A stretch of 64,000 nucleotides of DNA from positions 2,719-66,718 of the forward strand of contig JBDRZP010000007.1 in NCBI GenBank assembly GCA_039804025.1, written 5' to 3'. Made by a program: the position numbers and the translations under genes. The notes beneath the pieces were generated by a model. It saw only the letters and a program-made list of their open reading frames with translations, was not told where the DNA came from and made no database searches. Shown here in pieces: positions 4,557-49,276 of this stretch (position 1 is the first letter of the stretch; every line of letters starts with the position of its first letter). This DNA comes from a candidate division WOR-3 bacterium (GTDB taxonomy: Bacteria; Hydrothermota; Hydrothermia; Hydrothermales; JAJRUZ01).

Positions 4557-4955
4557 GTGAATAAAGACACTTTAATTTTAGGTGTTGAAGAATTTGTTGA
4601 ATTACAGAAATTGCTTGATGATTTTACATACAGAGCAAACACACATTCTTCAATGCTTTCTACCCTTTCAGGACAATTACTTGTTTCTTCAGGTTTTAAA
4701 ACTCCCTTTAATCTACTTGCCATATCAGCATTACTTGCAGGGATTTTTCAAAGCACAAGAGAATTGGCAAGAATAATAGGAGAAAAAAATTTTGTAACTT
4801 TTTTTCAGGAAGGTAATAGCTGGAATATATATTACACCCTGGTTGGGGAAGACCTGCTCCTTACCACCTTTTTTGATGATAGAACTATACTGGGAATGGT
4901 AGAAGTTCAGGCAAAAAAACTTGCAAAAAAGATAAATGAACTTTTGAAAAAATGA
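4557..4955 (+). CDS. roadblock/LC7 (MglB-like) domain protein
   Basis: 132 aa; size and pattern (LILGVEEF...LAISALLAGIF...GNSWNIYYTLVGEDLLLTTFFD) fit the roadblock/LC7 fold; first gene of a coupled operon. Confidence 0.5.
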   Translation: MNKDTLILGVEEFVELQKLLDDFTYRANTHSSMLSTLSGQLLVSSGFKTPFNLLAISALLAGIFQSTRELARIIGEKNFVTFFQEGNSWNIYYTLVGEDLLLTTFFDDRTILGMVEVQAKKLAKKINELLKK

Positions 4956-6826
4956 CCCTTTTAAATCCAAGATTTACCTTTAAAAACTTTGTTGAATATA
5001 AAGGGAACAGAATGGCAAAAAGAGCCCTTGAAACCATAATAGAGGATCCACTTGTTTTCAATCCAGTCTTTATATACTCAGAACCAGGAATGGGTAAAAC
5101 CCACCTTGTAACTGCTCTTACACACAGATTAAGAGAAAAAAACATTAAGGACCTTTTTCTTATACCAAAAGAATTTGAAAAAAATTATGAAAAAATATAC
5201 GATTTTAAAAAGGGATTTTTAATCATTGATAATTTTGAAAATTTTTCAAAAATAAAAAGTGAAATAATTGAGGAGTTCACGAATAATTTTGAAATACTTC
5301 TTGCGAATGAGGTTGAAATAATTCTCTCTTCCTCAATTCCCTATAATGAATTAAAGGACCTACCTTTCGAACTTTTATCAAGGATAAAAGGAGGCCTTTT
5401 AATAGAAATATTGCCACCTGATGAAGAAGATATTAAAATCATTATAAAAGAGAAACTAATTAAAAGAGGAATAGAATTAGAGGAAAGATTTATTAATTTG
5501 ATTTCAAGGAAAAATTACAAAAATATAAGAGAAATAGAAGGTGATATAAATAAAATTTTTTTAAGGTTTATTTCAAAAGAAAAAATTGAAGAAAAAGATA
5601 TAGAAGAAATAACAGGAATATCACTTCCTATACTCTTCTTTTCAGATATAATACCTGAAATTGAAAAAAGCCTTGAAAAATTAGAAGTAGTTGCAAGGGA
5701 AGAGGAAGCTTTAAAAACAGCCTTAAAGGAAAAAATTTATATATGGGAAATGAAGGGATTTAAAACTGATAGACTCAAAAAACTTATAGGAGTAAAAGAC
5801 TTGCAGATTTTAAAAGAAGAATACAGAAAATTTATCAGCGATGTTACAAAACTGATTGAGTATCAAAAAATTTATGGTGAAATAGGTGTTCAAGATATAG
5901 AAATTGAAAAAGCCCTTTTTGATCCTGATAGGGTTCTTGAGGTTGAAAAATGGATAGAAGAGATAAAAAGCAGTGTTTTAAAGAAAGAGGAACCAATAAT
6001 TCTAGAAGAAGCTATAAAGGAATCTGAAGAAACTGAAGAAATTGAAGAAATCAGTACTACAGAAGAAAAAAAAGAAATTGAAGAAATTATAGAAGTAAAA
6101 GAAGAGGAAGAAGTATTTATAATTGAGTCTGATTATAACAGAGATGTTCTTGAAGAAATAAAAAAACAAGCAAGAGAAGGTAAACCTGAGATTTTACTTA
6201 TCTTTTCTCAGGGAAGGAGGGGACTTTCAACTCATCTTCTTTATGCTTATGAAATAAATAAAGAAAAGAAAAAAGTTTTTTACCATTCAAATGACATATC
6301 AGATTTATTCTTTGAAGACGAAAGTAAACTTAATACAATTTTTAAAGATTATAATTTTATTGTAATAGATGATGCAGAAATATTTTTTGATGTGGAGGAT
6401 TTAAGAGATAAAATTTTACCTTTAATTATAGAAGAAAAAAATAATGGGAAAAAATTTTTAATAGGAATAAAGAAAAATCCTGAAGAAATCTATTTACCGG
6501 AGGAATACAAAAAAGTATTTGAGTCTTCAAAAAATGTTTCCTTAAAAAAACCAGATAGAAAAATACTTGAAGAAATTTTAAATGAAAAAATAAAAAAAGA
6601 AAACTTGAACCTCGATGAAAATCTAAAAGAAGAAATTCTTAATAGAGAGTTTTTTGATTTAAAAGAATTTGAAGATTATCTTAAGGAAACACAGAAAATA
6701 ATTGAAAATAGAGTAAAAAAAGAGGAAATTAAAATAAGTCTAAAGGGAAACTCAGCCAATGAGAAAAGTAATATAATTTTTGATATTGAAATAATAGAAG
6801 AAAGAATTTTTGAGGACTACCCATGA
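4952..6826 (+). CDS. DnaA/Hda-family AAA+ ATPase-like protein with a second degenerate AAA+-like module and no DnaA domain IV
   Basis: N-terminus LNPRFTFKNFVEYKGNRMAKRALETIIEDPLVFNPVFIYSEPGMGKTHLVTALTH matches the DnaA AAA+ box (NPxYTFdnFVvG..N..A......Npl.NPlFiYG..GlGKTHLl.Ai); Walker B-like FLIIDNFE; second module ILLIFSQGRRGLSTHLLYA...FIVIDDAE; E/K-rich linker between; start overlaps upstream stop (ATGA). Confidence 0.6.
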   Translation: MTLLNPRFTFKNFVEYKGNRMAKRALETIIEDPLVFNPVFIYSEPGMGKTHLVTALTHRLREKNIKDLFLIPKEFEKNYEKIYDFKKGFLIIDNFENFSKIKSEIIEEFTNNFEILLANEVEIILSSSIPYNELKDLPFELLSRIKGGLLIEILPPDEEDIKIIIKEKLIKRGIELEERFINLISRKNYKNIREIEGDINKIFLRFISKEKIEEKDIEEITGISLPILFFSDIIPEIEKSLEKLEVVAREEEALKTALKEKIYIWEMKGFKTDRLKKLIGVKDLQILKEEYRKFISDVTKLIEYQKIYGEIGVQDIEIEKALFDPDRVLEVEKWIEEIKSSVLKKEEPIILEEAIKESEETEEIEEISTTEEKKEIEEIIEVKEEEEVFIIESDYNRDVLEEIKKQAREGKPEILLIFSQGRRGLSTHLLYAYEINKEKKKVFYHSNDISDLFFEDESKLNTIFKDYNFIVIDDAEIFFDVEDLRDKILPLIIEEKNNGKKFLIGIKKNPEEIYLPEEYKKVFESSKNVSLKKPDRKILEEILNEKIKKENLNLDENLKEEILNREFFDLKEFEDYLKETQKIIENRVKKEEIKISLKGNSANEKSNIIFDIEIIEERIFEDYP

Positions 6827-8400
6827 GAGGTTCTCTTAAAGAGGTGCCTTTTTCTGATGTAGTTCAGTTAATGGTTATGGGTAAAAAAACAGGAAGGTTA
6901 TCAGTAACAAATGGAGAAGATTTTTTAGAACTATATTTTAAGGGGGGAATAGTAATATATGGTAAAATGGTTAATAGACCTGAAAGAATAGGGGAAATTC
7001 TTTTAGCAAAAGGGATAATTGATGAGGAAAAGTTAAAAGAAGCCAAATCACTTGTTGACAAAGGAAAACCAAATATAGGAAGTGCTCTTTTAGAACTTAA
7101 TGTTCCAGAAAACGAAATTAAAAAAGCCTACGAAGAGGAAATTAAAAAATTTGTTGCCAATGCAATTTCTTGGAATGATGGATATTTTAACTTTGAACCT
7201 GATGAGTTTCCAAAGGAAAAACCCATTGTTTCTATTGACCCTTCTTATCTTCTTTTAGAATCTGCAAGAACCTTTGATGAATGGCGAAAAATAGAAGATA
7301 TTATTCCATCTTTAGATGAAATATGTATTTTAAAAGACAAAACCTATGTGCCAAGAGATGAAAAAGAAGCTAAAATTATTGAAAGGATTGATGGAAAAAA
7401 AACTGTAAAAGAAATTTTAGAGGAAACAGGTGAAAATCTCTTTGACCTTGCTGAGACTTTTAAAAATCTCCTCTTAAGAGAGGTTATAGAAACAAAAGAA
7501 AAAATTGAAAAGGAAGAAGTTTCAAAAGCAAAAATTCTTGAACATATAAACTTAGGGTATGCCTTTCTAAAAACAGGATTATTTGAAGAGGCTGAGAGAG
7601 AATTTAAAAGACTCAATGAGCTTGCTCCCAATAAACCAGAAGGTTATTTTTATTTAGGACTTCTTTCTATTTATAAAAAGGAGTTCGAAAAAGCAATTTC
7701 TTATTTAAATGAAGCATTAAAATTGGACCCCCTTAATCCAAAAATACTTAACAATTTGCTTTATATTTACCTCGAAACTAACAGGTTAGAGGAAGCAGAA
7801 AAAATTATAAAACAATTAAATGAAATTAAAATTGATGATGAGAGATTCTTACTTAATAAGGCAATTTATTTTGAAAAAATTGGGGAAAAAGAAAAGTCAG
7901 AGGAAATAATAAGAGCATTAATGAAGGAAAAATCTTTCTTAAAAACACCTTATATTCTTCTTGCTCAGAAACTTTATAATGAAAAAAAGTTTCTTCAGGT
8001 TATAGAGATACTTTCAATAATAAAAGGATATGATCCGAAAAATCCTGAGGTTAATTATGGTCTCGGTTTATCATACAGAGCCTTAGGAAAAATAAAGGAA
8101 GCTGAAGAATTTTTGAAAAATGCAATGAAACTATCTCCATCAAATATAAAGTATAAACTCGCCCTTGCTGATTTTTATTATGAAAAGGGAAAATTTGATG
8201 AATGTAAAAATCTATACACACAGGTTTTATCAATTGATAAGCATAACAAGGAAGCCTTATTCAGAATGGGAAATATTTATTTAAAAGAAGGTAAATACGA
8301 AAATGCTCTTAAATATTTTGAAGAGATCTTAAAAATTGAACCTGAAAACAGAGTGGTAAAAAGAAATGTTGAAATTATCAGAAAAACTATTAATGTTTGA
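6823..8400 (+). CDS. DUF4388 (PATAN-like) domain plus TPR-repeat protein
   Basis: N-terminus VPFSDVVQLMVMGKKTGRLSVTNGEDFLELYFKGGIVIY is typical of DUF4388; C-terminal half has multiple 34-aa TPR units (AEREFKRLNELAPNKPEGYFYLGLL..., AISYLNEALKLDPLNPKILNNLLYIY...); ATGA overlap with upstream gene. Confidence 0.55.
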   Translation: MRGSLKEVPFSDVVQLMVMGKKTGRLSVTNGEDFLELYFKGGIVIYGKMVNRPERIGEILLAKGIIDEEKLKEAKSLVDKGKPNIGSALLELNVPENEIKKAYEEEIKKFVANAISWNDGYFNFEPDEFPKEKPIVSIDPSYLLLESARTFDEWRKIEDIIPSLDEICILKDKTYVPRDEKEAKIIERIDGKKTVKEILEETGENLFDLAETFKNLLLREVIETKEKIEKEEVSKAKILEHINLGYAFLKTGLFEEAEREFKRLNELAPNKPEGYFYLGLLSIYKKEFEKAISYLNEALKLDPLNPKILNNLLYIYLETNRLEEAEKIIKQLNEIKIDDERFLLNKAIYFEKIGEKEKSEEIIRALMKEKSFLKTPYILLAQKLYNEKKFLQVIEILSIIKGYDPKNPEVNYGLGLSYRALGKIKEAEEFLKNAMKLSPSNIKYKLALADFYYEKGKFDECKNLYTQVLSIDKHNKEALFRMGNIYLKEGKYENALKYFEEILKIEPENRVVKRNVEIIRKTINV

Positions 8401-9163
8401 TTTAAAAAGTATAAAAGAAATAATACTTGAAAAAACAGGTATTGATTTATCCTATTACAGAGATAGTTACCTTGAAAGAAGAATAAGAGTAAGGATGAGG
8501 AAAAGCGGTTTTTCAAATTTTCTCGATTATATTGAAAAACTGGAAAGTGATTTTGAAGAAAGAAAAAAATTTATAGATGAAATAGGAATAAATGTATCAT
8601 ACTTTTTCAGAAATAAAAATACCTTTGAAGAAATAAGAAGGTTAATTATACCTGAGTTAAGAAATAGAAAAACAATTTATATATGGAGTGCTGGATGTGC
8701 CTCTGGAGAGGAACCCTATTCTTTAGCCATAATTTTAAACGAGGAAAAAATTGAAAACTACAAAATATTTGCAACAGATATTGATAGTGAAATAATTGAA
8801 AAGGCAAAAGAAGGGATTTATTTTCCTGATAAGTTTATTGAAACACCTAAGGAATTTATTGAAAAATATTTTTTTAAAATAAATGGAAAATATAAAATAG
8901 TTGAGTATTTGAAAAAAAATATTACATTTTTTCTTCATGATGTAATAAAAAAACCACCACTTTTTAATTTTGACCTCGTTCTTTGCAGAAATGTTGTTAT
9001 ATATTTTATTAAGGATAAACAAAGAATTGTATTCGAAAATCTATATAATAGTCTGAAAAAAGGGGGGTTTCTTGTTCTTGGTAAAACAGAATTCCTTCCC
9101 TTTGAATTTAATGATAAATTTGATTACATTTCAAAATCTGAAAGAATATTGAAAAAATTATGA
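8366..9163 (+). CDS. cheR: CheR-type protein-glutamate O-methyltransferase (alternative start at 8393)
   Basis: all-alpha N-domain (FFRNKNTFEEI) plus SAM-MTase motif IYIWSAGCASGEEPYSLAI, the canonical CheR signature; overlaps the upstream gene end. Confidence 0.7.
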   Translation: MLKLSEKLLMFDLKSIKEIILEKTGIDLSYYRDSYLERRIRVRMRKSGFSNFLDYIEKLESDFEERKKFIDEIGINVSYFFRNKNTFEEIRRLIIPELRNRKTIYIWSAGCASGEEPYSLAIILNEEKIENYKIFATDIDSEIIEKAKEGIYFPDKFIETPKEFIEKYFFKINGKYKIVEYLKKNITFFLHDVIKKPPLFNFDLVLCRNVVIYFIKDKQRIVFENLYNSLKKGGFLVLGKTEFLPFEFNDKFDYISKSERILKKL

Positions 9164-10980
9164 AAGAAGAAAAATTTTTTATTCCTGTTTTGGATACAAA
9201 TTATGAGGAAAGTTACAATTTAAGTTATCCAGAATGGAGAATAAAATTTGAGAAATTATTACAGGAAATGGAAAAGGGAAATCTAAGGTATATATACTTA
9301 GGAGCAAACACTTCCTTTTTCCTTAGATTTTATAAAGAAAACATTTTAGAAGAAATTAAAATAAACCTTCCCCTTAGATTAAAGAAAATTGGTTTAAACA
9401 CACTTTATTACTTTATTCCAGTAAATGTTATTGATTCCTTTTCTTTGATTTTAAACTTTAAAATTATTTTTGAAGAATTGAAGGAAAGTTTTTCAGGAGA
9501 AAGAACAGTTTATTTGCCTTATATAAATAAACTTCCTAAAGGATTTTTAGCACTTTTAAAGGGATTTGGCATAGAATTCATATTTTCAAGAGTTCCTGTA
9601 AAAAGACCCTACTTAATAGTAAATGATATTGAAAATGAAATAAAAATAGTTAATGTTTCTTCTGACTCAAAAATTGTATTCCTTGATTCCTTTCTAATAA
9701 AAGAGGATATTAGTAAAAATTTATTCTCCATTGAAGAAATAACATCAAGTATTCCTGATAAGGGTGAATTGTATGAATTTAAATCAGAAGTCAAAATAAA
9801 GAAAAGTTTTCCTTATTTTAAAAAGCTTGAAGAAACTATTTTTAAATACCATATTTTAAACATAGTATTAAAAATTGAAAATCCCAATATTTCAAATTAT
9901 TATATTAAAGAAAAAATAAAAAATTTTTTAACCCTCTATAATTCAGAAAATATCGAACTTTTAAAAGAAGAAATAAGGGAAATAAAGCACTATGGTAAAA
10001 AGTTAAAAGAAGATTTTCTTGATAATAGTAAAAAATTATCAGTATTCAATCCTTTACCCTATAAATTTAATTATTACAGAATAATAAATAACAAACTTTA
10101 TAAGGCAGAAGCAAAGCCTTTTTCCTTTTCAGAATTGAAAGAAGAAGAATCCTATGAAAAAAATCTGGATTTTAGAATTTATAATAGAGGTAACATAAAA
10201 TTTTATGAACTTTTAATTCTTACAAAATTAATTGGTGAAAAAGGTGAACTTAAAGGTGGAATTTATGAAGAAGAAGTTATAAAGGAAAACTTTATTAAAA
10301 CTAAATCAAAATTAAGATTGAGTGATAAATCTTACGATTATTCAATTACATTAATTCCTCATGAAAATCTTTTAAAAATAAGAGGAAAACTAAAAAATAT
10401 AAATAAATGTGAAATTTTAATAGGGAGTGAAAAAAATTTAAATATTAGAGAATTTTCCCTCTTTGAGTTAGAGGAATTGACTCTTGAGAAAACCTATTCC
10501 GGTTTTCTTATTATTGATGGTGATAACAGATATCTTATAAAAACAATACCTGGAATCGGTGTTAAAAAATATAATAATACCTTGAAACTTATTTTTGAAG
10601 GAAAGGTAAGCCTTGATATAAAGAAAATTTCTGAATCTTTAATCCTTGAGTATATGAAGTATAAATACAAACCCATTATTTTTGAAGGCTCGCCTAAAAA
10701 GGAACTTTCATCAATTTTTGAAATAAAAAATGAAGATACAAATTTTATTTATATGGATGTTAAAGAAAATATGCTTTATATATACCTTTATTCAGATGAA
10801 AAAGATAATATAAAAATTCTTTTTAAGGGAAAACCTCTTGAAGCCTTTATTTTTGACTTAAAGGCTAATAAAAAACTTGATAAAGTTATGATTAGGGATA
10901 GATGGGTAATAATACCCCCAAAAAAGGGAATTTTCTGTATTGGAGTTGACATAAAAACTTTTCCCTTTTCAATATTTTAA
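9160..10980 (+). CDS. hypothetical protein, K/E/N-rich, no recognisable domain
   Basis: 606-aa ORF translationally coupled (ATGA) to cheR and overlapping the M28 gene start by 1 nt. Confidence 0.4.
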   Translation: MKEEKFFIPVLDTNYEESYNLSYPEWRIKFEKLLQEMEKGNLRYIYLGANTSFFLRFYKENILEEIKINLPLRLKKIGLNTLYYFIPVNVIDSFSLILNFKIIFEELKESFSGERTVYLPYINKLPKGFLALLKGFGIEFIFSRVPVKRPYLIVNDIENEIKIVNVSSDSKIVFLDSFLIKEDISKNLFSIEEITSSIPDKGELYEFKSEVKIKKSFPYFKKLEETIFKYHILNIVLKIENPNISNYYIKEKIKNFLTLYNSENIELLKEEIREIKHYGKKLKEDFLDNSKKLSVFNPLPYKFNYYRIINNKLYKAEAKPFSFSELKEEESYEKNLDFRIYNRGNIKFYELLILTKLIGEKGELKGGIYEEEVIKENFIKTKSKLRLSDKSYDYSITLIPHENLLKIRGKLKNINKCEILIGSEKNLNIREFSLFELEELTLEKTYSGFLIIDGDNRYLIKTIPGIGVKKYNNTLKLIFEGKVSLDIKKISESLILEYMKYKYKPIIFEGSPKKELSSIFEIKNEDTNFIYMDVKENMLYIYLYSDEKDNIKILFKGKPLEAFIFDLKANKKLDKVMIRDRWVIIPPKKGIFCIGVDIKTFPFSIF

Positions 10981-19410: not shown

Positions 19411-22044
19411 ATGAATTTTTTATTTTTATTCTTTTTTATATCTCAAATGAGTGAAGGTTTAAAAATAAACTTTCATACAGCAAGTTTTGAGCCAATTACT
19501 GAAGGTGTCCCTATATTCTCTTCTCAGTTGGATGGGAATTTTAATCCAGGTTTAAATTATGTAGTTATACAGTTTTCAGAAATCCCGACTCCAGAAGAAA
19601 GAAAAAATATTGGTGCAAGTTATGGTATTAAATTTACTCCCTGGTATATCCATGAGAATGCTTTTATTGTAAGTTTCGTTTCAGACAACCCATTAAAAAA
19701 GATAGAAGAAATAAAGGAAATAAGAAATGTGCGAAGTGTCTTTCTTTACAAACCAGCTTTTAAATTTACGAAAGATGCCTGGGAACTATTTACTACACAA
19801 CCTGATTTAAGAGACAAATTTTATGTTCAGGTTTTTCACGATTCTTTACTAATGGATGCTGTAAATCAGGTTATCAATCTTGGAGGTGAAATATTATTCA
19901 TCGGAAAAAGAGATTTAGAAGAGGCAAAACATCTTGCAAGATTTGGATTTATAATAGAAGCAGGGAAACTCGCACAGATTGCAAATAATAGTGGAGTTTT
20001 TGTTATCGGAAGATTATATGAAAAGAATGTTTTTAATGATGCTTCAAGATGGGTAATTCAGACAAATCTCTCAGTTGATACATCTATATGGGCTCGTGGA
20101 ATTAGAGGTGAGGGAGTTATAATAGGGCATAATGACAACGGACTTGACCCAAACCATTGTTTCTTTAATGGAACTATAGACGGTCAGCCAAAAATTGTAA
20201 GACTTTTTGATTATAACGGTGGAGGTTTTGCAAACGGGGATCATGGAACTCATACTGCAGGAAGTGCACTTGGTGGAACTGATCAGCAGAGCACAAATAA
20301 ACAATATAAAGGAATGGCTAAAAGGGCAAGACTTGTATCACAGGAACCATTAGCTCCTGACCCTCCTGGCTTTTACAGTGTCCTTCTTGACGCATATAGT
20401 GAAGGAGCAAGAATACATACAAATAGTTGGGGTTATCAATGTAATGCTATTTTAAATTATTGTGGAACAGGTGGATACGAATTAGAGGCTCTTGATATTG
20501 ATAATTTTGTATGGAATTATATTGATATGACCGTATTTTTTGCAGCAGCAAATGGTGGAGATTGTGTATCCCCTTGGACTTGTGGAAATGTAAGAAGAAT
20601 ATCCTGTCCTGCAACTGCAAAAAATGATATAACAGTTGTTGCAACAAGAAGAGCAAACAATCAGGAATATAAGACAACATGGAGTTCCTTTGGGGCACCG
20701 AATAATCGTGGTGATTACAGGTTTGGAACGGATTTAACTGCCCCTGGTGAGAATGTCAACTCTGCTGATAATAATACAGCATGTGGTATTGTTCAAATGT
20801 CAGGGACATCAATGGCAACTCCAACAGCAGCAGGGGCAGGAGCACTTGTTGTTCAATATTATAAAGAAGGATGGTATGGAAACGGAACAAAGAACTCTGC
20901 ACCTTCATGGAATCCCTCATCAGCACTTGTAAGGGCTACTCTTTTAGCATCTTGTAGGGATATGCTTTATGATGTTGATGATGATGAGTATGGACCAGCA
21001 AATTCAGGAGTCCCAAATATTTATGAGGGTGCAGGAAGAATAACTCTTGAAGATGCTTTGTGGTTTGGTGAGACAAGAAAACTTGCCTTTGTTGATGGTG
21101 ACTTACCATACGGAGATAATCAGTTTAATACTGGTGATTCAATTGTTTACACAATAAATGTTCTTGGAAGCTCTATACCATTAATAATTATTCTTTCATG
21201 GATTGATTATGTGGGGACAGCAAATACATATCCAGTTATAGTTAATAACCTAAATTTAAAGGTGGTTGATCCTTCCGGAAACACATATAAGGGGAATGTT
21301 ACATCCAATGGATGGTCTGTTCCAAATACTGGCTCTTTTGATGCACTTAATACCTGGGAACTCTTCAAATTACAGAACCCTTCAACAGGGGAATGGAAAA
21401 TAATAGTTAAAGGTGCTAATATACCTCAGCCCAAGCCTGCAGGAATAAAATATCCTTTTGCAATTGTTGTCACAGGTAATTTTGACCAAATTTCAAAACT
21501 TGGAACTACTGAAAGTTTTCTTATTCTCTCTTCTTTAAAAGAAGGGATTCTTTTAAATCTTAACTTCTTTGAAAAAATTTCAGAAATTTTGATCTTTAAA
21601 AAGGAAGAAAAAGAGAAAAACTTCTCCCTTATTTTAAAAGAAGAAAACCCTTTAGCACCCTACAGATTTGTTGATAGGAATGTAAAAATCGGGAATACTT
21701 ATGAATATAAAGTGATGGTAATTTCAGGAAGCGGAAATCAGTGGTTTGGTCCAGTTTCAATAAAGTATGATTACTTAACAAGTGAAATCAAAGCTTTTTC
21801 ACAAATTTCCGGTTCAAAACTTAAGTTAAATCTATACCTTGAAGAAGAGGACGAAATAGAACTCTATCTTAAAGACCCCTCTGGTAGAAATGTTAAAAAG
21901 ATTCTTGAAAATAGATTTTCAAAAGGAAACCACTCCTTAGTTTTTGACCTTTCAAATTACAGAATACCAAGCGGAATTTATTTTCTGAATATTAAAGGTA
22001 AAAGTGGAATTGATTTCAAGATTAAAATAAGTGTTTTATACTAA
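19411..22044 (+). CDS. secreted S8 subtilisin-like serine protease with T9SS-type C-terminal sorting domain
   Basis: signal-peptide-like N-terminus; catalytic blocks GDHGTHTAGS (His) and MSGTSMATP (Ser); C-terminal ~80 aa (ELYLKDPSGRNVKKIL...GIYFLNIKGKSGIDFKIKISVLY) matches the Por/T9SS CTD pattern. Confidence 0.8.
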   Translation: MNFLFLFFFISQMSEGLKINFHTASFEPITEGVPIFSSQLDGNFNPGLNYVVIQFSEIPTPEERKNIGASYGIKFTPWYIHENAFIVSFVSDNPLKKIEEIKEIRNVRSVFLYKPAFKFTKDAWELFTTQPDLRDKFYVQVFHDSLLMDAVNQVINLGGEILFIGKRDLEEAKHLARFGFIIEAGKLAQIANNSGVFVIGRLYEKNVFNDASRWVIQTNLSVDTSIWARGIRGEGVIIGHNDNGLDPNHCFFNGTIDGQPKIVRLFDYNGGGFANGDHGTHTAGSALGGTDQQSTNKQYKGMAKRARLVSQEPLAPDPPGFYSVLLDAYSEGARIHTNSWGYQCNAILNYCGTGGYELEALDIDNFVWNYIDMTVFFAAANGGDCVSPWTCGNVRRISCPATAKNDITVVATRRANNQEYKTTWSSFGAPNNRGDYRFGTDLTAPGENVNSADNNTACGIVQMSGTSMATPTAAGAGALVVQYYKEGWYGNGTKNSAPSWNPSSALVRATLLASCRDMLYDVDDDEYGPANSGVPNIYEGAGRITLEDALWFGETRKLAFVDGDLPYGDNQFNTGDSIVYTINVLGSSIPLIIILSWIDYVGTANTYPVIVNNLNLKVVDPSGNTYKGNVTSNGWSVPNTGSFDALNTWELFKLQNPSTGEWKIIVKGANIPQPKPAGIKYPFAIVVTGNFDQISKLGTTESFLILSSLKEGILLNLNFFEKISEILIFKKEEKEKNFSLILKEENPLAPYRFVDRNVKIGNTYEYKVMVISGSGNQWFGPVSIKYDYLTSEIKAFSQISGSKLKLNLYLEEEDEIELYLKDPSGRNVKKILENRFSKGNHSLVFDLSNYRIPSGIYFLNIKGKSGIDFKIKISVLY

Positions 22045-22084
22045 AATTTCCACAAAACCTAAAAAGATAAACTGTAAGGAAAAT

Positions 22085-23521
22085 TTATAATACTATTTCT
22101 TCAAACCTTCTACTCTTTGGTATCTGGCTTTTTATTTTGTTTTCCCTTTTAATACCAATTCCAAGGCATATTCCATCATAAACAAGAACTTTAAAACCAT
22201 CCCTTTCTTTATCTGAAATTTCAATATCAAAACCCTTTAAAATTTTTATCGCATCTTCAGAATTTTTAATTTCATAAATATTTTTCTTAATAAATGGAAA
22301 AACAAGCTGAACAAAATTTGTTGTCAGTTTGTATTCATTATTATGCAATCTTGCTATACGCATACCCTCCCTGAAAGAATGAGGAATTTCAAATTTTTCA
22401 AAATCTTCTGATAAAAGCCATATATCATTCTTTAATTTAAAAATTTTATCATCAAAATAAGATTCATCTATTCCAAAATATTCTTTAAGAAATTTTAAAA
22501 ACCTTCTAACCTCAGAATTATCCCTTTTTAAAAGTTTTCTATACTCTTTTTTTAAAACATAATCCTTTTCTTTTTTTAGTTTATCTATTTTCTTCATTTT
22601 AACAATAAAAAAACCCTCCATTTTTGATTTATGAGGCCATATCCTGATAGCTTTTTCAATTTCTTTTGAAAACTTTTTATCCCTATATTCAGTTATACCC
22701 CTTTCCTCATTTATGTTAAGTTTATCAATTTTCATCACTTCTACTGGGTAACTTTTTAAAATCTCATCAATAAGTTCTTCATTTTCTTCAACTGTTAAGG
22801 TGCAGGTTGAATAAACAATTTCACCTCCTACCTTTAAAGCCTTTATTGCTGAAACAAGAAGTTTTTTTTGAATAATTTTATAAAAATTAACCTCCCTTTC
22901 ATTCCACCAGGAAAGAACCTCCTTTGCTTTATGGAGAGTTCCCATACTTGAACAGGGAGCATCAACGAGAATTTTATCAAAACTTTCAAAATAAAATTTT
23001 CCAAATTGGACTCCATCCATCATAGTTATGGCAGTATTAATAAGACCAATTCTATCAATGTTATGGGTTAAAGCTTTTATTCTTGGTAAATGAATATCAT
23101 TACAAACAAGAACACCTTTATTTTCCATAATTTCACCAATCTGAGTTGCCTTAGAACCAGGAGCAGAAGCAATATCAAGTATAAATTGACCTTTTTCAGG
23201 TTTTAGAATCTTTACAGGTAAAAGAGAAGATTTTTCCTGTATGTAAAAAAGACCTGCGTAGTGTTCAAGTGTTTTACCTATTTCGTATGGTTCATAAATA
23301 ACTTCAAAGGAATTTTCATAAAGAGGGTTTTCTTTTAATATAAAGCCTTTCTTTATTAATCTTTCCTTCAAAAAATTTTTATCAGTTTTTAAAATATTAA
23401 CTCTTAAAGTTTTAGGGAATTCATCCTTAACAGATTCAAAAAATTCCTTTGTTTCCTTAGAACCAATGAGTTTAACAAGGTAAGAATAAAAGGAGGTATT
23501 TTCAAACAAGATTTCTTGCAA
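22085..23521 (-). CDS. 16S rRNA m5C methyltransferase, RsmB/RsmF (NOL1/NOP2/Sun) family
   Basis: DIASAPGSKATQI (SAM motif) and DKILVDAPCSSMGTL (catalytic Cys); C-terminal extension as in RsmF. Confidence 0.8.
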   Translation of the reverse strand: MQEILFENTSFYSYLVKLIGSKETKEFFESVKDEFPKTLRVNILKTDKNFLKERLIKKGFILKENPLYENSFEVIYEPYEIGKTLEHYAGLFYIQEKSSLLPVKILKPEKGQFILDIASAPGSKATQIGEIMENKGVLVCNDIHLPRIKALTHNIDRIGLINTAITMMDGVQFGKFYFESFDKILVDAPCSSMGTLHKAKEVLSWWNEREVNFYKIIQKKLLVSAIKALKVGGEIVYSTCTLTVEENEELIDEILKSYPVEVMKIDKLNINEERGITEYRDKKFSKEIEKAIRIWPHKSKMEGFFIVKMKKIDKLKKEKDYVLKKEYRKLLKRDNSEVRRFLKFLKEYFGIDESYFDDKIFKLKNDIWLLSEDFEKFEIPHSFREGMRIARLHNNEYKLTTNFVQLVFPFIKKNIYEIKNSEDAIKILKGFDIEISDKERDGFKVLVYDGICLGIGIKRENKIKSQIPKSRRFEEIVL

Positions 23522-24233
23522 GTTCCCTTATGTTAAGAGCACTTTCCTTTATTTTTATTGCAGAGTTTATTACCTTTAAATCTTCCGTTTTCTGAGAAAT
23601 TGTATTTGCTTCTTTTAAAATTTCCTGTCCATAAAAATCCAGTTTTTTACCCCATGGTCCATCTTTATTTTTTAAAATTCTCATAATACTTTTTATATGA
23701 GAGCCTATTCTAACAATTTCCTCATTTATTTTCTCACCATTCATCTTTTCTAAATTAAACCCAATTTTTTTTATTTCCCTTTCAATTGCTTTTTTTATTT
23801 CTTCTCCCTCCTTTAATCTTTTTTCTTCAAGTTCTATTAGGGCTTTTTTTAAAAGTCTTTTTAAAAGTATCCATATTCTTTTTTCAGGATAAATAAATTT
23901 AACAAGACCAGGAATTTTGAATGGGTCAATGGTAAATAGTAAATTCTTTTTACTTTTAAGTTTTATATCTTTAATTAAATTTTCATTAATTTTGAATCTC
24001 AATCCTGTTTCGGGAAAATTAATTTTAACTATGAATTTTCCATCCTTTAAATTTTTTTCAAGAAAATTTCTTACCTTTGCTTCTATTCCAGGGATTTCTG
24101 GCTGTAAAATAACTTTAAACTCAGAACCTAATGAATTTAAAGATATAATTTCAAGTTTACAGAAAATATTACCTTCTCTTCCCGATTTCGTGCTTACACC
24201 TGTCATACTTTTTATTCCCTTTTTAATTTTCAT
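23502..24233 (-). CDS. YicC/YloC-family stress-induced protein
   Basis: N-terminal SMTG motif and overall size (243 aa, somewhat short); overlaps rsmB-like start by 20 nt. Confidence 0.55.
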   Translation of the reverse strand: MKIKKGIKSMTGVSTKSGREGNIFCKLEIISLNSLGSEFKVILQPEIPGIEAKVRNFLEKNLKDGKFIVKINFPETGLRFKINENLIKDIKLKSKKNLLFTIDPFKIPGLVKFIYPEKRIWILLKRLLKKALIELEEKRLKEGEEIKKAIEREIKKIGFNLEKMNGEKINEEIVRIGSHIKSIMRILKNKDGPWGKKLDFYGQEILKEANTISQKTEDLKVINSAIKIKESALNIRELARNLV

Positions 24234-26160: not shown

Positions 26161-28182
26161 TTACCTTGTGATTATAACTTTAAAAGGTTTATTCTCTTTG
26201 TTATATTTTAAAAAGTAAATGCCAGAGCAAATTCCATCAATGGATAATGAAATTCTTGAATTTGATTTGCTCACTCTATAAGTTCTAACTTTCTCACCAA
26301 GAACATTATAAAGTTCAAATTGACTTATTTTATCTTTAATCAAATGATTTGATTCAATCTTTATCTCATTTTTAACAACATTACCTAATAACCTGAATTC
26401 TTCTTTTGAAAAATCGTTTTCCTCTATTCCATATCCATAAAACTTGTAAATCTGTAAACCAGCATAATAATCAGCTACATAGGCGTAATTTTCTGAAACA
26501 TAAACACCTTCTGCCCATTCAGGTGTCTGATAGTATCCTACTTCATATGGTGAAGAAGGATTTGAAACATTTATTATCCTTAAACCAGAATTCCCATCAG
26601 CAACATAGGCATAATTGTCTGAAACATAAACACCCTGTGCATAGCCAGGTGTATCATAATATCCTACTTCATATGGTGAAGAAGGATTTGAAATATCTAT
26701 TATCCTTAAACCAGAACCTCCATCAGCAACATAGGCATAATTGCTCGAAACATAAACACCCTGTGCATAGCCAGGTGTATCATAATATCCTACTTCATAT
26801 GGTGAAGAAGGATTTGAAATATCTATTATCCTTAAACCAGCCCTCTCATCAGCAACATAGGCATAATTGCTCGAAACATAAACACCTAATGCAGCTCCAG
26901 GTGTATCATAATATCCTACTTCATATGGTGAAAAAGAATTTGAAACATCTATTATCCTTAAACCAGAACCCTTATCAGCAACATAGGCATAATTGCCCGA
27001 AACATAAACACCTATTGCATCGTCAGGTGTATAATAATATCCTACTTCATATGGTGAAGAAGGATTTGAAATATCTATTATCCTTAAACCAGCATAATAA
27101 TCAGCAACATAGGCATAATTGCTTGAAATATAAACACCTAATGCAGCTCCAGGTGTATCATAATATCCTACTTCATATGGTGAAAAAGGATTTGAAACAT
27201 TTATTATCCTTAAACCAGCCCTCCCATCAGCAACATAGGCATAATTGCTCGAAACATAAACACCTATTGCATCGTCAGGTGTATAATAATATCCTACTTC
27301 ATATGGTGAAGAAGGATTTGAAACATTTATTATCCTTAAACCAGAATTCCCATCAGCAACATAGGCATAATTGTCTGAAACATAAACACCCTGTGCAGCT
27401 CCAGGTGTATCATAATATCCTACTTCATATGGTGAAGAAGAATTTGAAACATCTATTATCCTTAAACCAGAACCTCCATCAGCAACATAGGCGTAATTGC
27501 CTGAAACATAAACACCCCATGCCCAGCCAGGTGTATAATAATATCCTACTTCATATGGTGAAGAAGGATTTGAAACATCTATTATCCTTAAACCAGAAAT
27601 TCCATCAGCAACATAGGCGTAATTGCCTGAAATATGAACACCTAATGGATAGCCAGGTGTATTATAATATCCTACTTCATATGGTGAAGAAGGATTTGAA
27701 ACATTTATTATCCTTAAACCAGCATAATAATCAGTAACATAGGCGTAATTGCCTGAAACATAAACACCATAAGAATAGCTAGGTGTAAAATAATGACCAA
27801 GTTTGATTGGATTTGACGCATCTGTAACATCCCATATTTCAAGTCCACCTTGTTCTGTTGCAATATACAATCTCTTATTTACTGGTTCATAAAAAAGTCC
27901 CCAAACAAATCCCCTTGTATAAATTTTTTCTGAAACTTTTTGAGGATTAGAAGGATTTGAAACATTTAAAATATATACACCACCACCTGAACCCAAAAAT
28001 ACAAGGTTCCTTGAAGGATCAAAAGAAACTGCAAAAGAAGGACCAAATGGCCAGTTGCCTATGAATCGGACATTCATTGAATCAAAACCTGCCTTTACTT
28101 CAATTTCAGAAGGAGGAAACAATTTCCAGGGCTTATAATTAATTCCGGTATTTATCAAATTTATAAGTATGAATACCAACAT
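26161..28182 (-). CDS. secreted LVIVD-repeat (beta-propeller-like) protein with T9SS-type C-terminal sorting domain
   Basis: about 11 copies of a 40-aa unit [41 protein letters not shown] (LVIVD repeat pattern); signal-peptide-like N-terminus; C-terminus ...[20 protein letters not shown] is T9SS-CTD-like. Confidence 0.7.
   Translation of the reverse strand: [673 protein letters not shown]
26440..27790. repeat. about 11 tandem copies of a 120-nt unit (near-identical) encoding the LVIVD repeats
   Basis: recurring strings such as tattatccttaaaccag at 120-nt spacing (26573, 26693, 26813, ... 27653). Confidence 0.85.
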
Positions 28183-48229: not shown

Positions 48230-48232
48230 TGA

Positions 48233-49261
48233 TTATTTTACTTCCCTTAAATACCTTGCCGCCTCCTCAGGAGATATTGGATTTATATAAAAACCTGAAC
48301 CCCACTCAAAACCTGCAATATAAGTTATTCTTGGTATTATCTCAATATGAAAATGGTAATCAAGATGTATTGTCTCCCAATAATAAGGTCTTCCAGGTCT
48401 TGGTCTTATAACAGGGGATGTGTGAATTACAAAATTATAGGGGGGGTCATTTAAAAGAAGTTTAATTCTCAAAAGAACATCTTTTAAAACAATTGATAAA
48501 TCTTTTATTTCTTCATTATCCATCAAAGTAAAATCATGACTGTGTTTTAAAGGGAAAATCCATGTTTCAAAAGGAAAAGAAGAAGCATAAGGGCACCAGA
48601 CTAAAAATTTTTCAGTTTTGTATACAATTCTTTCACCTAAAGAAACTTCCTGGTCAATTAAATCACAGAATATACATCTTTCCTTTCTTTTATAATGTTC
48701 CTTTGCTGCCTCAAGTTCTGCAACCACTGCAAGAGGAATTATAGGAGTCGCAATAAGTTGAGAATGAGAATGATATAAAGAAGCACCAGCATCCTTTCCG
48801 TAATTTTTAAAAATTAAAATGTATCTGAATCTTATATCTTTTGTTAAATCTATATATCTTTCTTTAAAGGCTATAAGCACATTTTTTATATCATCATGAT
48901 TCATATCTTGAAGTTGAGTTTCATGGTTAGGTGTTTCAATGATTACCTCATGGGCACCTATTCCTGAAACATGATCAAAAAGCCCAACTCCCTTTCTCAT
49001 TAGTTCTCCCTCAATTCTTAAAGCTGGAAATTTATTAGGAACAACCCTCACTTTCCAACCTGGTTTATCTCTTTGTGTTCCCTCTTTTCTTATAGAAAAA
49101 ACCTCCTTCGGGGTTTTATCCTCATTTCCTTCACAGAAAGGACATGTATCCTTTGGGGGTATCTCTTCTTTTTCTCTTTGAAAATCTTTTGGTCTTAAAC
49201 CTCTTTCAGGAGAAATTATGGTCCACCTCCATCTTATAGGGTCATATCTTAATTCAGGCAT
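48233..49261 (-). CDS. galactose-1-phosphate uridylyltransferase-family (GalT-like HIT) nucleotidyltransferase
   Basis: ELRYDPIRWRWTIISPERGLRPKDF...CPFCEGNE and HSQLIATP (HxHxQ-like) motifs. Confidence 0.7.
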   Translation of the reverse strand: MPELRYDPIRWRWTIISPERGLRPKDFQREKEEIPPKDTCPFCEGNEDKTPKEVFSIRKEGTQRDKPGWKVRVVPNKFPALRIEGELMRKGVGLFDHVSGIGAHEVIIETPNHETQLQDMNHDDIKNVLIAFKERYIDLTKDIRFRYILIFKNYGKDAGASLYHSHSQLIATPIIPLAVVAELEAAKEHYKRKERCIFCDLIDQEVSLGERIVYKTEKFLVWCPYASSFPFETWIFPLKHSHDFTLMDNEEIKDLSIVLKDVLLRIKLLLNDPPYNFVIHTSPVIRPRPGRPYYWETIHLDYHFHIEIIPRITYIAGFEWGSGFYINPISPEEAARYLREVK

Positions 49262-49276
49262 ATTATTTTCTCCTTT

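What the first reader, a model, noticed from the sequence alone, without database searches (positions are those of the whole stretch)
4952..6826. DnaA paralog with duplicated, degenerate second AAA+ module and no DNA-binding domain
The first ~200 aa carry the textbook DnaA box VII-less AAA+ core (NPRFTFKNFV...NPVFIYSEPGMGKTHL, Walker B FLIIDNFE). Residues ~400-470 repeat the pattern in degenerate form (ILLIFSQGRRGLSTHLLYA...FIVIDDAE) with the Walker A lysine lost. The two modules are separated by a Glu-rich linker (EEIEEISTTEEKKEIEEIIEVKEEEE). The helix-turn-helix DnaA domain IV is absent, so this is not a replication initiator. It looks like an active-ATPase/pseudo-ATPase pair, as in heterodimeric AAA+ switches, embedded in a signalling-like operon.
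Basis: partly seen in the sequence, partly recalled or inferred. Interest (0 to 1): 0.6.

Follow-up and report, generated by a model that had tools for sequence, protein, structure and literature searches.

The report
Tandem DnaA-like ATPase in signalling operon
This gene encodes two fused copies of the ATP-binding core of the replication initiator DnaA, the second copy crippled and the DNA-binding domain gone, and it belongs to an unstudied family that sits inside a small-GTPase and chemotaxis-type signalling gene cluster, so a replication ATPase seems to have been re-used for cell signalling.

Summary
ORF 4952-6826 (+, 624 aa) has three folded parts.

- **N-module (1-225):** a DnaA domain-III AAA+ module with Walker A, Walker B, the box VII arginine and the sensor II arginine.
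- **Central module (~230-342):**
- **C-module (~388-590):** a second DnaA-III module, after a disordered Glu-rich linker (343-387). It matches the N-module at hhalign 99.3%, E 2.5e-20. Its P-loop lysine is lost (GRRGLST), as are the arginine finger and sensor II arginine.

A conserved acidic-aromatic motif closes the protein. No domain I, II or IV is present.

The family is uncharacterised and databases label it "DnaA/Hda family protein". A Gemmatimonadota member has two near-canonical DnaA-III copies, and the query lineage sits at the degenerate end of that series.

I found the gene in 65 species-representative genomes (named ones: WOR-3, Hydrothermales, Stahlbacteria, TA06, Cloacimonadota, Edwardsbacteria, UBP2). 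It is followed by a PATAN-TPR gene in 60 and by CheR in 55. It is preceded by a Roadblock/MglB gene in 39 and an MglA-like GTPase gene in 36.

The best reading is a non-replicative, nucleotide-dependent switch or scaffold in an MglA/MglB plus Che-type polarity or motility pathway. The mechanism is inferred. I did not locate this genome's own dnaA.

The parts
4557..4955 (+). Roadblock/LC7 (MglB-like) gene, 132 aa. Its stop overlaps the start of the DnaA-like gene (ATGA).
   Evidence: Pfam Robl_LC7 E 7.5e-5. NCBIfam MglB model E 1.9e-12, below cutoff. 47% identical to the Roadblock gene in the distant WOR-3 locus L001. ATGA overlap read. A Roadblock gene lies upstream on the same strand in 39 of 65 loci.
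4952..6826 (+). Tandem DnaA-domain-III protein, 624 aa (the finding).
4952..5626 (+). N-module (residues 1-225): DnaA domain III-type AAA+ with lid. Walker A at 5078-5101, Walker B (DN) at 5216-5239, box VII with Arg finger R144 at 5369-5398, sensor II R193 at 5522-5542. The initiator-specific motif is shortened by ~11 residues (5165-5218).
   Evidence: Bac_DnaA E 9.6e-23. PDB DnaA domain III E 2.5e-24. Foldseek 8bv3_A TM(target) 0.81. pLDDT ~90. Motifs and the ISM deletion seen in MAFFT alignments. Coordinates verified.
5639..5977 (+). Central helical module (residues 230-342), the family hallmark. Invariant K261, Y263, I264, W265, M267, K268, G269, F294, Q305, K306, G309, E319, F323, P325.
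   Evidence: Alignments A1, A2 and A5. AF2 pLDDT 82.6 when modelled alone. No Pfam hit. No PDB structural match with E below 1. The same unit occurs in 6-11 matched stretches in Thermoplasmata proteins.
5978..6112 (+). Disordered Glu-rich linker (residues 343-387, 21 of 45 residues Glu), variable in length across the family.
   Evidence: pLDDT below 50. Composition. Length variation, including a ~100-aa expansion in P0011, seen in A1.
6113..6721 (+). C-module (residues 388-590): second, degenerate DnaA domain III. P-loop SQGRRGLST (6206-6232) with Lys replaced by Leu. Walker B FIVIDDAE (6356-6379). No Arg finger and no sensor II Arg.
   Evidence: hhalign N-module vs C-module 99.3%, E 2.5e-20. 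phmmer with canonical DnaA i-E 9.7e-4. pLDDT ~88 with a five-strand alpha/beta core. Tandem-AAA+ proteins (p97, NSF, Rix7) align over 600-700 columns. Relatives keep an intact GxGK[ST].
6779..6823 (+). Conserved acidic-aromatic C-terminal motif FDIEIIEERIFEDYP (residues 610-624), preceded by a low-confidence tether (591-610).
   Evidence: Related motifs end most family members, for example ...GELVEENF...RIMEEY...EVWEEY...FRLIEDF. Low pLDDT in the monomer model.
6823..8400 (+). PATAN (DUF4388/PatA_N) plus TPR protein, 525 aa. Its start overlaps the stop of the DnaA-like gene.
   Evidence: DUF4388 E 1.1e-22 and multiple TPR families. ATGA overlap read. Present downstream in 60 of 65 loci.
8366..9163 (+). 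CheR-type protein-glutamate methyltransferase, 265 aa.
   Evidence: CheR E 2.7e-53 and CheR_N E 5e-15. Present in 55 of 65 loci.
9160..10980 (+). Unknown 606-aa protein whose ORF overlaps the end of cheR. It takes the place that CheD-CheB occupy in relatives. Membership in the system is uncertain.
   Evidence: No credible Pfam hit (best E 0.013) and no PDB hit. A homologous or similar-length gene follows cheR in L016, L004 and L005.

Best explanation
The gene encodes a non-replicative descendant of a tandem duplication of DnaA domain III.

Shown:
- It has two DnaA-type AAA+ modules, a family-specific helical module between them, a disordered acidic linker and a conserved C-terminal motif.
- It has no DnaA domains I, II or IV.
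- It belongs to an uncharacterised family. That family's gene is embedded, often with overlapping start and stop codons, in a conserved cluster. The cluster order is (PilT-like), MglA-like GTPase, Roadblock/MglB, this ATPase, PATAN-TPR, CheR, CheD, CheB, then optionally CheW, MCP and CheA.

Inferred:
- The protein works as a nucleotide-dependent switch or scaffold of an MglA/MglB-type polarity or motility pathway wired to a Che-type chemosensory system.
- The N-module binds ATP. Its invariant arginine finger could mediate head-to-tail contacts like those of DnaA domain III, either with another protomer or with the C-module.
- In this lineage the C-module can no longer bind or hydrolyse nucleotide in the usual way and serves as a structural pseudo-ATPase partner.
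- The Roadblock protein, and MglA where it is present, set or read the nucleotide state.
- The C-terminal acidic-aromatic motif on its flexible tether is a docking peptide, most plausibly for the TPR domain of the neighbouring PATAN-TPR protein.
- Loss of domain IV and shortening of the initiator-specific motif imply that origin DNA is no longer the ligand.
For: Architecture:
- establish two DnaA-III modules, the motif inventory and the absence of domain IV.
- The protein starts at the position equivalent to DnaA residue ~109, so domains I and II are missing.

Evolutionary series:
- Both modules of Gemmatimonadota P0052 hit a canonical DnaA (E 7e-76 and 4e-63). Both keep the ISM, box VII and sensor II.
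- WOR-3 members keep both P-loops, but the C-module has lost its arginines.
- The query clade has also lost the C-module P-loop Lys.

Context, from 65 species-representative genomes:
- PATAN in 60, CheR in 55, CheD in 50, CheB in 49, Roadblock in 39, MglA-like in 36.
- PilT-like in 21, CheW in 15, MCP in 14.
- The same order appears in independent metagenome loci.
- CheA is present in L077.
- ATGA overlaps on both sides of the gene in the window.
- A TPR-rich protein is also adjacent in the Gemmatimonadota locus, which lacks Che and Mgl genes on record.

Literature:
- MglA/MglB genes are known to lie near PATAN genes (PMC4316618; bioRxiv 10.1101/2021.06.11.447907).
- PATAN response regulators are reported to act on the type IV pilus motor (same bioRxiv preprint).

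Conservation:
- K49, D93, S143, R144 and R193 are invariant across members down to ~25% identity (A2). This argues that the N-site is functional.
Against: - No experiment exists for any member, so every functional step is guilt by association.
- In the query lineage the cluster is reduced. There is no MglA within 64 kb and no CheD or CheB. The N-module Walker B is DN instead of DD. ATP turnover may therefore be very slow, or the system may be partly decayed.
- Relative domain placement in the AF2 model is unreliable (pTM 0.41), so intramolecular N-C pairing is not shown.
- In some members the tail motif is followed by ~7 further residues. A strict C-terminal carboxylate-clamp mode of TPR binding cannot be universal.
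- I did not locate the genuine dnaA of this genome.
Confidence: 0.62

Rival explanations
1. It is a replication regulator of the Hda or DnaA-antagonist type. It would dock on DnaA through its domain-III-like modules and stimulate or block the ATP cycle of DnaA.
For: - The N-module is closest to DnaA and Hda.
- It keeps an arginine finger, which is the residue Hda uses to stimulate DnaA-ATP hydrolysis (established knowledge).
- Databases name it "DnaA/Hda family protein".
Against: - It scores far below the NCBIfam equivalog cutoffs (Hda 82 vs 194.8, DnaA 141.6 vs 343.9).
- The protein starts three residues before the LNPRFTF box, which leaves no room for Hda's N-terminal clamp-binding motif (direct reading).
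- The gene neighbourhood in the 65 scanned genomes is GTPase, PATAN and Che genes. No dnaN, gyrB, recF or canonical dnaA turned up in the loci whose genes were listed. The domain-IV HMM found nothing in the loci fetched.
- The extra conserved central module and tail have no counterpart in Hda.
Confidence: 0.07
2. It is a purely structural scaffold in which neither module turns over ATP. The DnaA folds would be retained only as interaction surfaces.
For: - The C-module P-loop is dead (GRRGLST), and it lacks the Arg finger and sensor II Arg.
- The N-module Walker B second acidic residue is Asn in the query clade.
- The local cluster has lost MglA, CheD and CheB.
Against: - Walker A GK[ST], Walker B Asp, the box VII Arg and the sensor II Arg of the N-module are invariant down to ~25% identity. 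That is hard to explain without nucleotide binding.
- Most tandem relatives keep both P-loops (28 of 41).
Confidence: 0.15
3. It is a target or tether for the adaptation enzymes, analogous to a chemoreceptor. The C-terminal aromatic-acidic motif on a flexible tether (…RIFEDYP, …EVWEEY, …IIWEEL) would recruit CheR or CheB, as the NWETF pentapeptide does. Glutamates in the helical module or linker would be methylated.
For: - CheR is in 55 of 65 clusters, and CheD and CheB in about 50.
- Many type-A clusters show no MCP within 10 kb.
- Some tails fit the x-[FWY]-x-x-[FWY] pentapeptide pattern known from receptors (the pattern is recalled from the chemotaxis literature).
- The tether before the tail is disordered.
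Against: - Most tails (…ELVEENF, …FRLIEDF, …RLIEDAR) do not fit the pentapeptide pattern.
- The Gemmatimonadota member keeps a tail but has no CheR on record within 10 kb.
- Type-B and L077-type clusters contain bona fide MCPs.
- No conserved receptor-like methylation consensus is evident in the alignment.
Confidence: 0.1
4. It is a STAND-like or defence NTPase of a conflict system.
For: - Sub-threshold Pfam hit of the C-module to nSTAND_NTPase5 (31.7 bits vs 34).
- Weak PADLOC hits: mad8 at 15 bits for this protein, mad2 at 41.6 bits for CheR.
Against: - All these hits are generic P-loop or methyltransferase similarity. CheR matches Pfam CheR at E 2.7e-53.
- There is no effector domain.
- The cluster has the same gene order in genomes assigned to several candidate phyla, and the loci with gene lists show housekeeping genes next to it. 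No mobile-element genes were seen in those loci.
Confidence: 0.04

Closest known systems
DnaA domain III (bacterial replication initiator AAA+ module; PDB 8bv3, 2z4r, 1l8q/2hcb)
   Same: - Both modules derive from it.
- The N-module keeps Walker A and B, the box VII Arg finger, the sensor II Arg and the lid.
- The fold match is TM 0.81 to 8bv3_A.
   Different: - No domain I or II (the protein starts at DnaA position ~109) and no domain IV HTH.
- The initiator-specific motif is shortened by ~11 residues.
- The module is duplicated in tandem.
- The gene is not in an origin-type neighbourhood.
Hda / HdaA (DnaA-related regulatory inactivator)
   Same: A DnaA-III-like AAA+ module without a DNA-binding domain and with a conserved arginine finger. 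Structural hit to 3bos at E 5e-11.
   Different: - Hda is a single ~230-aa module with an N-terminal clamp-binding motif and a replication role.
- Here there are 624 aa, two modules, an extra helical module and a tail. There is no room for a clamp motif, and the context is signalling.
Type II (tandem) AAA+ proteins with one degenerate ring, and AAA+ assemblies with pseudo-ATPase subunits (NSF D2; clamp-loader delta/delta'; ORC subunits)
   Same: Two AAA+ folds in one chain, of which one has lost catalytic residues. p97, NSF and Rix7 align over both modules.
   Different: - The modules here are of the initiator (DnaA) clade, not the classical clade.
- They are separated by a 110-aa helical module and a disordered linker rather than stacked directly.
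- Ring formation is untested.
Myxococcus xanthus MglA/MglB polarity module with the Frz chemosensory system (and the RomR/RomX, MglC, RomY accessory proteins)
   Same: The cluster links an MglA-like GTPase and Roadblock/MglB proteins with Che-type proteins (CheR, CheB, CheD, CheW, MCP, CheA). TPR and PATAN adaptors and a PilT-like ATPase lie in or beside it (literature).
   Different: - I know of no DnaA-like AAA+ ATPase in the Myxococcus module, and PMC4316618 mentions none.
- Here all components are in one operon-like cluster in FCB-group candidate phyla.
- I did not look for RomR/RomX homologues.
Thermoplasmata multi-repeat proteins carrying the same ~105-aa helical unit (for example MEM4729540.1 'DUF835 domain-containing protein', MCK5561610.1)
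   Same: The central module of the query is one copy of the unit W-x3-G-[FY]...F..F...L-D-..G-F-E...L.D..K. That unit gives 6-11 matched stretches per protein there. Some of these proteins also carry a DnaA-type ATPase domain.
   Different: - The named examples are archaeal.
- They have many repeats, Zn-ribbon or Lys-rich tails, or an N-terminal DUF835 domain.
- Their function is unknown and there is no Pfam model.

Membership tests
DnaA, chromosomal replication initiator (TIGR00362 / Pfam DnaA_N + Bac_DnaA + Bac_DnaA_C) | Domain III AAA+ with Walker A, Walker B, box VII Arg finger and sensor II Arg. | tested here: met
   The N-module matches Bac_DnaA at E 9.6e-23. K49, D93, R144 and R193 align with the DnaA motifs.
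DnaA, chromosomal replication initiator (TIGR00362 / Pfam DnaA_N + Bac_DnaA + Bac_DnaA_C) | C-terminal domain IV helix-turn-helix that binds DnaA boxes. | tested here: not met
   No PF08299 hit. The domain-IV HMM finds nothing in the window ORFs or in any family member. The C-terminal region is a second AAA+ module.
DnaA, chromosomal replication initiator (TIGR00362 / Pfam DnaA_N + Bac_DnaA + Bac_DnaA_C) | N-terminal domains I and II. | tested here: not met
   Query residue 2 aligns with DnaA residue 109 of 8btg_A. No DnaA_N hit.
DnaA, chromosomal replication initiator (TIGR00362 / Pfam DnaA_N + Bac_DnaA + Bac_DnaA_C) | Full two-helix initiator-specific motif between beta2 and beta3. | tested here: not met
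   An ~11-residue deletion relative to canonical DnaAs in all WOR-3 N-modules. The motif is retained in the Gemmatimonadota member P0052.
DnaA, chromosomal replication initiator (TIGR00362 / Pfam DnaA_N + Bac_DnaA + Bac_DnaA_C) | Score above the curated equivalog cutoff. | tested here: not met
   141.6 bits against a cutoff of 343.9.
Hda (TIGR03420) | Single DnaA-like AAA+ module of ~230 aa scoring above the curated cutoff. | tested here: not met
   82.2 bits against a cutoff of 194.8. The protein has 624 aa and two modules.
Hda (TIGR03420) | N-terminal beta-clamp-binding motif (QL[SP]LPL-like). | tested here: not met
   Only three residues (MTL) precede the LNPRFTF box. The motif definition comes from established knowledge.
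Uncharacterised MglA/Roadblock-associated DnaA-like family (defined here) | N-terminal DnaA-III module followed by the central W-[EK]-M-K-G-[FY] ... Q-K-x-[YF]-G ... F-x-P-D helical module. | tested here: met
   All invariant columns are present in the query. The central-module HMM hits the window ORF at E 3.9e-43.
Uncharacterised MglA/Roadblock-associated DnaA-like family (defined here) | Gene immediately followed by a PATAN-TPR gene and cheR, and preceded by a Roadblock and/or MglA-like gene. | tested here: met
   The window has Roadblock, this gene, PATAN-TPR and CheR with overlapping ORFs. MglA itself is absent from the window.
Uncharacterised MglA/Roadblock-associated DnaA-like family (defined here) | Conserved acidic-aromatic C-terminal motif. 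| tested here: met
   FDIEIIEERIFEDYP. Related tails occur across the family.
Type II (tandem) classical-clade AAA+ (p97/NSF/ClpB type) | Two AAA+ modules in one polypeptide. | tested here: met
Type II (tandem) classical-clade AAA+ (p97/NSF/ClpB type) | Classical-clade modules forming stacked hexameric rings with pore loops. | not tested
   The best sequence and fold matches for both modules are DnaA and Hda. I did not inspect pore loops. Oligomeric state cannot be tested with these tools.
STAND / nSTAND5 NTPases (PF25199) | Score above the Pfam gathering threshold. | tested here: not met
   31.7 bits against 34. DnaA domain III explains the same region better.

The most novel reading that the evidence does not exclude
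The DnaA fold's ATP-dependent, arginine-finger-mediated self-assembly has been co-opted as the coupling device between a Che-type chemosensory array and an MglA/MglB Ras-like GTPase polarity switch. It would act as an ATP-gated polar scaffold or timer that plays the part RomR/RomX/FrzX play in Myxococcus. In this reading the Roadblock protein acts on an AAA+ ATPase rather than on a GTPase. The tethered C-terminal motif recruits the PATAN-TPR adaptor, or the CheR and CheB enzymes, which may even methylate the protein itself. The tandem duplication with recurrent loss of one site would then be a built-in asymmetric ATPase pair.
Probability: 0.25. Interest if true: 0.8.

Novelty: new variant of a known kind. 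Interest (0 to 1): 0.62.

Why it matters
- **A new use for the DnaA fold.** DnaA-type AAA+ modules are known almost only from replication initiation and its control (DnaA, Hda) and from helicase loading (DnaC, IstB). Here a whole family has shed every DNA-related domain. It sits instead in a conserved small-GTPase, Roadblock, PATAN-TPR and Che cluster in several poorly known phyla. That suggests an unrecognised use of the initiator fold in cell polarity or motility signalling.
- **Annotation errors.** It flags a systematic mis-annotation, since databases call members "chromosomal replication initiator protein" or "DnaA/Hda family protein".
- **A natural series for studying pseudo-ATPases.** Members range from two canonical modules to one live and one dead module, which is useful for studying how pseudo-ATPase partners arise.
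- **A new module.** It uncovers an undescribed ~105-aa helical module shared with giant repeat proteins of Thermoplasmata.

Tried and rejected
- Pairwise BLASTP of the two halves found no similarity. Profile methods were needed to see it.
- A word-index search with the central-module profile found only one extra fragment. The exhaustive HMM search later showed that the module is widespread.
- Looking for the genuine dnaA:
  - There is no domain IV in the window or the loci.
  - The best-scoring canonical DnaA hit tried (P0026) lies in an rpmH-rnpA-yidC | dnaA-dnaN-recF-gyrB origin region. That arrangement looks Firmicute-type rather than WOR-3.
  - The genome's own initiator was therefore not found.
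- A "CheA-less chemosensory cluster" idea lost weight once L077 turned out to carry CheA at the head of the cluster.
- I checked a defence-system reading with PADLOC and found only weak generic hits.
- Promoter and terminator consensus scans in this 28% GC DNA were uninformative (56 sites vs 45.9 expected).
- Literature searches for DnaA-like ATPases with MglA, Roadblock or PATAN, or for tandem DnaA domain III proteins, found nothing relevant. The WOR-3 genomics paper PMC12542636 does not mention motility, chemotaxis or DnaA.


Full report
**1. The observation**

The ORF lies exactly at 4952-6826 on the + strand and encodes 624 aa. All quoted motifs are present at the stated places:
- Walker A SEPGMGKT, residues 43-50.
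- Walker B FLIIDNFE, residues 89-96.
- Degenerate P-loop SQGRRGLST, residues 419-427.
- Second Walker B FIVIDDAE, residues 469-476.
- Glu-rich stretch, residues 362-387.

The window is 25-36% GC. The protein is 100% identical to a GenBank MAG protein named [quoted passage not shown].

**2. The N-module**

Residues 4-151 match Pfam Bac_DnaA (E 9.6e-23). Residues 2-220 align with solved DnaA domain III structures from Bacillus subtilis, Aquifex aeolicus and Thermotoga maritima (E 2.5e-24 to 7.6e-17). The alignment begins at DnaA residue ~109, so domains I and II are absent. The AlphaFold2 model has pLDDT ~90 here, and its best PDB match is 8bv3_A (TM 0.81 on the target).

Alignment with canonical DnaAs shows the following.
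- Walker A, the Walker B aspartate, the box VII serine-arginine (S143-R144, the position of the DnaA arginine finger) and the sensor II arginine (R193) are present. They are invariant across relatives down to ~25% identity.
- The region between beta2 and beta3, the initiator-specific motif, is ~11 residues shorter than in DnaA.
- The first box VII arginine is Leu.
- The second Walker B acidic residue is Asn in the query and its closest relatives, and Asp or Glu in the others.

The module is therefore DnaA-like and probably binds nucleotide. It is not "box VII-less".

**3. The second module**

BLASTP of the two halves finds nothing, but three independent lines show a real duplication.
- Profile-profile comparison of the N- and C-module alignments gives 99.3% probability and E 2.5e-20 over 191 columns. 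It covers both the alpha/beta core and the lid.
- A canonical DnaA hits window residues ~417-577 (i-E 9.7e-4). A profile of the central-plus-C region retrieves ordinary 430-480-aa DnaAs through positions 123-335, at E ~1e-17 to 1e-19.
- AlphaFold2 gives pLDDT ~88 with five strands (414-418, 441-445, 469-473, 501-506, 527-530) in the same order as the N-module's five strands. Tandem AAA+ proteins such as p97, NSF and Rix7 align across both modules.

In the query the P-loop lysine is Leu. The arginine finger and sensor II arginine positions are Val and Lys. WOR-3 relatives such as P0018-P0024 keep GxGK[ST] in this module but also lack both arginines.

**4.

- **A central helical module.** Between the two modules lies the best conserved part of the protein, a helical module at ~230-342. 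Its invariant residues are K261, Y263, I264, W265, M267, K268, G269, F294, Q305, K306, G309, E319, F323 and P325. It has no Pfam match. It models confidently on its own (pLDDT 82.6). It has no structural analogue in the PDB by Foldseek.
- **Its wider distribution.** An exhaustive profile search showed that the module is one copy of a ~105-aa unit. That unit gives 6-11 matched stretches per protein in long repeat proteins. The ones with a source name are from Thermoplasmata archaea, and some also carry a DnaA-type ATPase domain.
- **The true linker.** Only residues 343-387 form a disordered linker (pLDDT below 50, 21 of 45 residues Glu), and its length varies between relatives.
- **A C-terminal motif.** The protein ends in a conserved acidic-aromatic motif, FDIEIIEERIFEDYP, behind a low-confidence tether. 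Related motifs end most family members...GELVEENF...RIMEEY...EVWEEY...FRLIEDF...WPDLAARLIEDAR. In some members ~7 more residues follow the motif.

**5. No DNA-binding domain**

Pfam finds no Bac_DnaA_C. An HMM of domain IV built from nine canonical DnaAs recognises 45 canonical DnaAs among the fetched proteins. It finds no ORF of the window, no locus ORF and no family member. NCBIfam scores are far below the equivalog cutoffs for DnaA (141.6 vs 343.9) and Hda (82.2 vs 194.8).

**6. The family and its history**

The first search returned ~24 full-length relatives; those that carry a source name are WOR-3 or Hydrothermales. The exhaustive search gave 46 hits below 1e-30 and many more carrying the central module. 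Named examples come from WOR-3, Gemmatimonadota and Longimicrobiales.

The members form a series.
- In Gemmatimonadota P0052 both modules are near-canonical DnaA domain III. They score E 7e-76 and 4e-63 against a Compostibacillus DnaA. Both keep the initiator-specific motif, box VII and sensor II.
- In WOR-3 the N-module loses part of the initiator motif, and the C-module loses its arginines.
- In the query clade the C-module P-loop is lost as well.

Among the 41 tandem members in species-representative genomes, 28 keep both P-loops, 11 keep only the first and 2 keep only the second. Another 24 members have a single module or are cut short by a contig end. Variants exist in which the second module is absent (P0034, 394 aa) or is replaced by an ABC ATPase (P0032).

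**7. Context**

In the window the gene is flanked by ATGA overlaps. Upstream is a Roadblock/MglB-like gene (4557-4955). Downstream is a PATAN(DUF4388)-TPR gene (6823-8400). After that come cheR (8366-9163), an unknown 606-aa gene and an M28 peptidase gene, again with overlapping ORFs.

I scanned one genome per GTDB species with the central-module alignment and found 65 loci. The named ones are WOR-3, Hydrothermales, Stahlbacteria, TA06, Cloacimonadota, Edwardsbacteria and UBP2. A local phmmer census of same-strand neighbours within 10 kb gave these counts:

| Neighbour | Loci (of 65) |
|---|---|
| PATAN | 60 |
| CheR | 55 |
| CheD | 50 |
| CheB | 49 |
| Roadblock | 39 |
| MglA-like GTPase | 36 |
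| PilT-like ATPase | 21 |
| CheW | 15 |
| MCP | 14 |
| AAA_22 ATPase | 12 |

Many of the gaps are in loci cut short by a contig end.

Two main layouts recur.
- (MglA), Roadblock, tandem form, PATAN-TPR, CheR, CheD, CheB.
- accB, PilT-like, accC, MglA, single or tandem form, PATAN-TPR, CheR, CheD, CheB, TPR, AAA_22, CheW, MCP, CheW.

A third layout begins with CheA in L077. The related locus L014 begins with CheY and CheC. Independent metagenome loci show the same orders.

The Gemmatimonadota locus has no Che or Mgl genes on record. It does have an 867-aa protein with many TPR repeats immediately upstream. The query lineage (L016-L019) has the most reduced cluster. No MglA is encoded anywhere in the 64-kb window, and the ORFs I scanned between 14 and 51 kb are metabolic or transport genes.

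**8. Interpretation**

Established here:
- The protein is a DnaA-III-derived tandem AAA+ protein without DNA-binding domains.
- It is a core, translationally coupled component of a conserved cluster of MglA/MglB, PATAN-TPR and Che genes.

The literature already links MglA/MglB genes with PATAN genes, and PATAN regulators with the type IV pilus motor. It does not mention a DnaA-like ATPase there, and I found nothing on tandem DnaA domain III proteins.

Inferred:
- The protein is an ATP-dependent switch or scaffold of this pathway.
- The N-site is live and the C-module is a pseudo-ATPase partner in this lineage.
- The Roadblock protein, and MglA where present, modulate or read the nucleotide state.
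- The tethered C-terminal motif docks onto a partner. The best candidate is the TPR domain of the almost invariably adjacent PATAN-TPR protein.

Rivals score lower for the reasons given in their entries: an Hda-like replication regulator, an inert scaffold, a CheR/CheB substrate with a pentapeptide-like tether, and a defence NTPase.

**9. Limits**

- No member has been studied experimentally.
- Inter-domain geometry in the model is unreliable (pTM 0.41).
- I did not find the genuine dnaA of this genome. The one canonical DnaA I followed up lay in an origin region that looks Firmicute-type.
- The DN Walker B and the reduced cluster in this lineage leave open that ATP turnover is minimal here.

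**10. Verdict**

The protein is a member of a previously undescribed variant of the DnaA/Hda AAA+ group with a new architecture and a new, non-replicative context. Interest is moderate to high. The mechanism remains to be tested.

Noticed in passing
P0059, P0063, P0064, P0068, P0072, P0077, P0079, P0085, P0106 (proteins): Proteins of 600-1500 aa built from 6-11 copies of the same ~105-aa helical unit as the query's central module. The three with a source name are from Thermoplasmata archaea. Some have an N-terminal DUF835 domain, Zn-ribbons or Lys-rich tails. Several carry a strong DnaA-type ATPase domain (Bac_DnaA E ~1e-70), although archaea do not use DnaA. None has a Pfam model for the repeat.
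   Followed up: partly
window 9160-10980 (+): A 606-aa ORF that overlaps the end of cheR. It has no credible Pfam hit and no PDB sequence hit. A homologous or similar-length gene follows cheR in L016, L004 and L005, in the position where other lineages have cheD-cheB.
   Followed up: partly
L006 6490-9407; L007 5026-7934; L015 4390-7316; L030 5789-8735: A PilT-like T2SSE ATPase gene sits between the biotin carboxyl carrier protein gene (accB) and the biotin carboxylase gene (accC). This trio lies just upstream of the MglA gene in the type-B clusters and recurs across many genomes. It is an odd but conserved arrangement.
   Followed up: no
P0032; L060 and L071: A family variant in which the second DnaA-like module is replaced by an ABC-type ATPase (LptB-like, tail ...LYLGKKF[KR]L). 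The N-module and central module are kept. In L071 the usual PATAN and Che neighbours are missing; L060 is too short to judge.
   Followed up: no
L077 6361-7371; L014 5857-6931; L074, L077, L079: Some clusters carry two or three Roadblock genes in a row, and L077 has a TPR-Roadblock fusion. These sit upstream of MglA and the DnaA-like gene. L077 also has CheA at the head of the cluster.
   Followed up: partly
window 26161-28182 (-) and 26406-27737 (+): An LVIVD-repeat protein (10 repeats, E 1e-144) with a type IX secretion sorting domain. A 443-aa antisense ORF lies entirely inside it and is probably a by-product of the repeat composition. A large subtilase is at 19411-22044.
   Followed up: no
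window 44863-51331 (-): A glycogen and alpha-glucan gene block: GH77 4-alpha-glucanotransferase, a branching-enzyme-like alpha-amylase with CBM48, a GalT-like transferase and a GH57 enzyme.
   Followed up: no
window ~20000-24000: Cumulative GC skew peaks near 21-22 kb. At the same place the ORF orientation switches from mostly + to mostly -. No replication genes were seen, so this probably tracks coding strand rather than a replication landmark.
   Followed up: no
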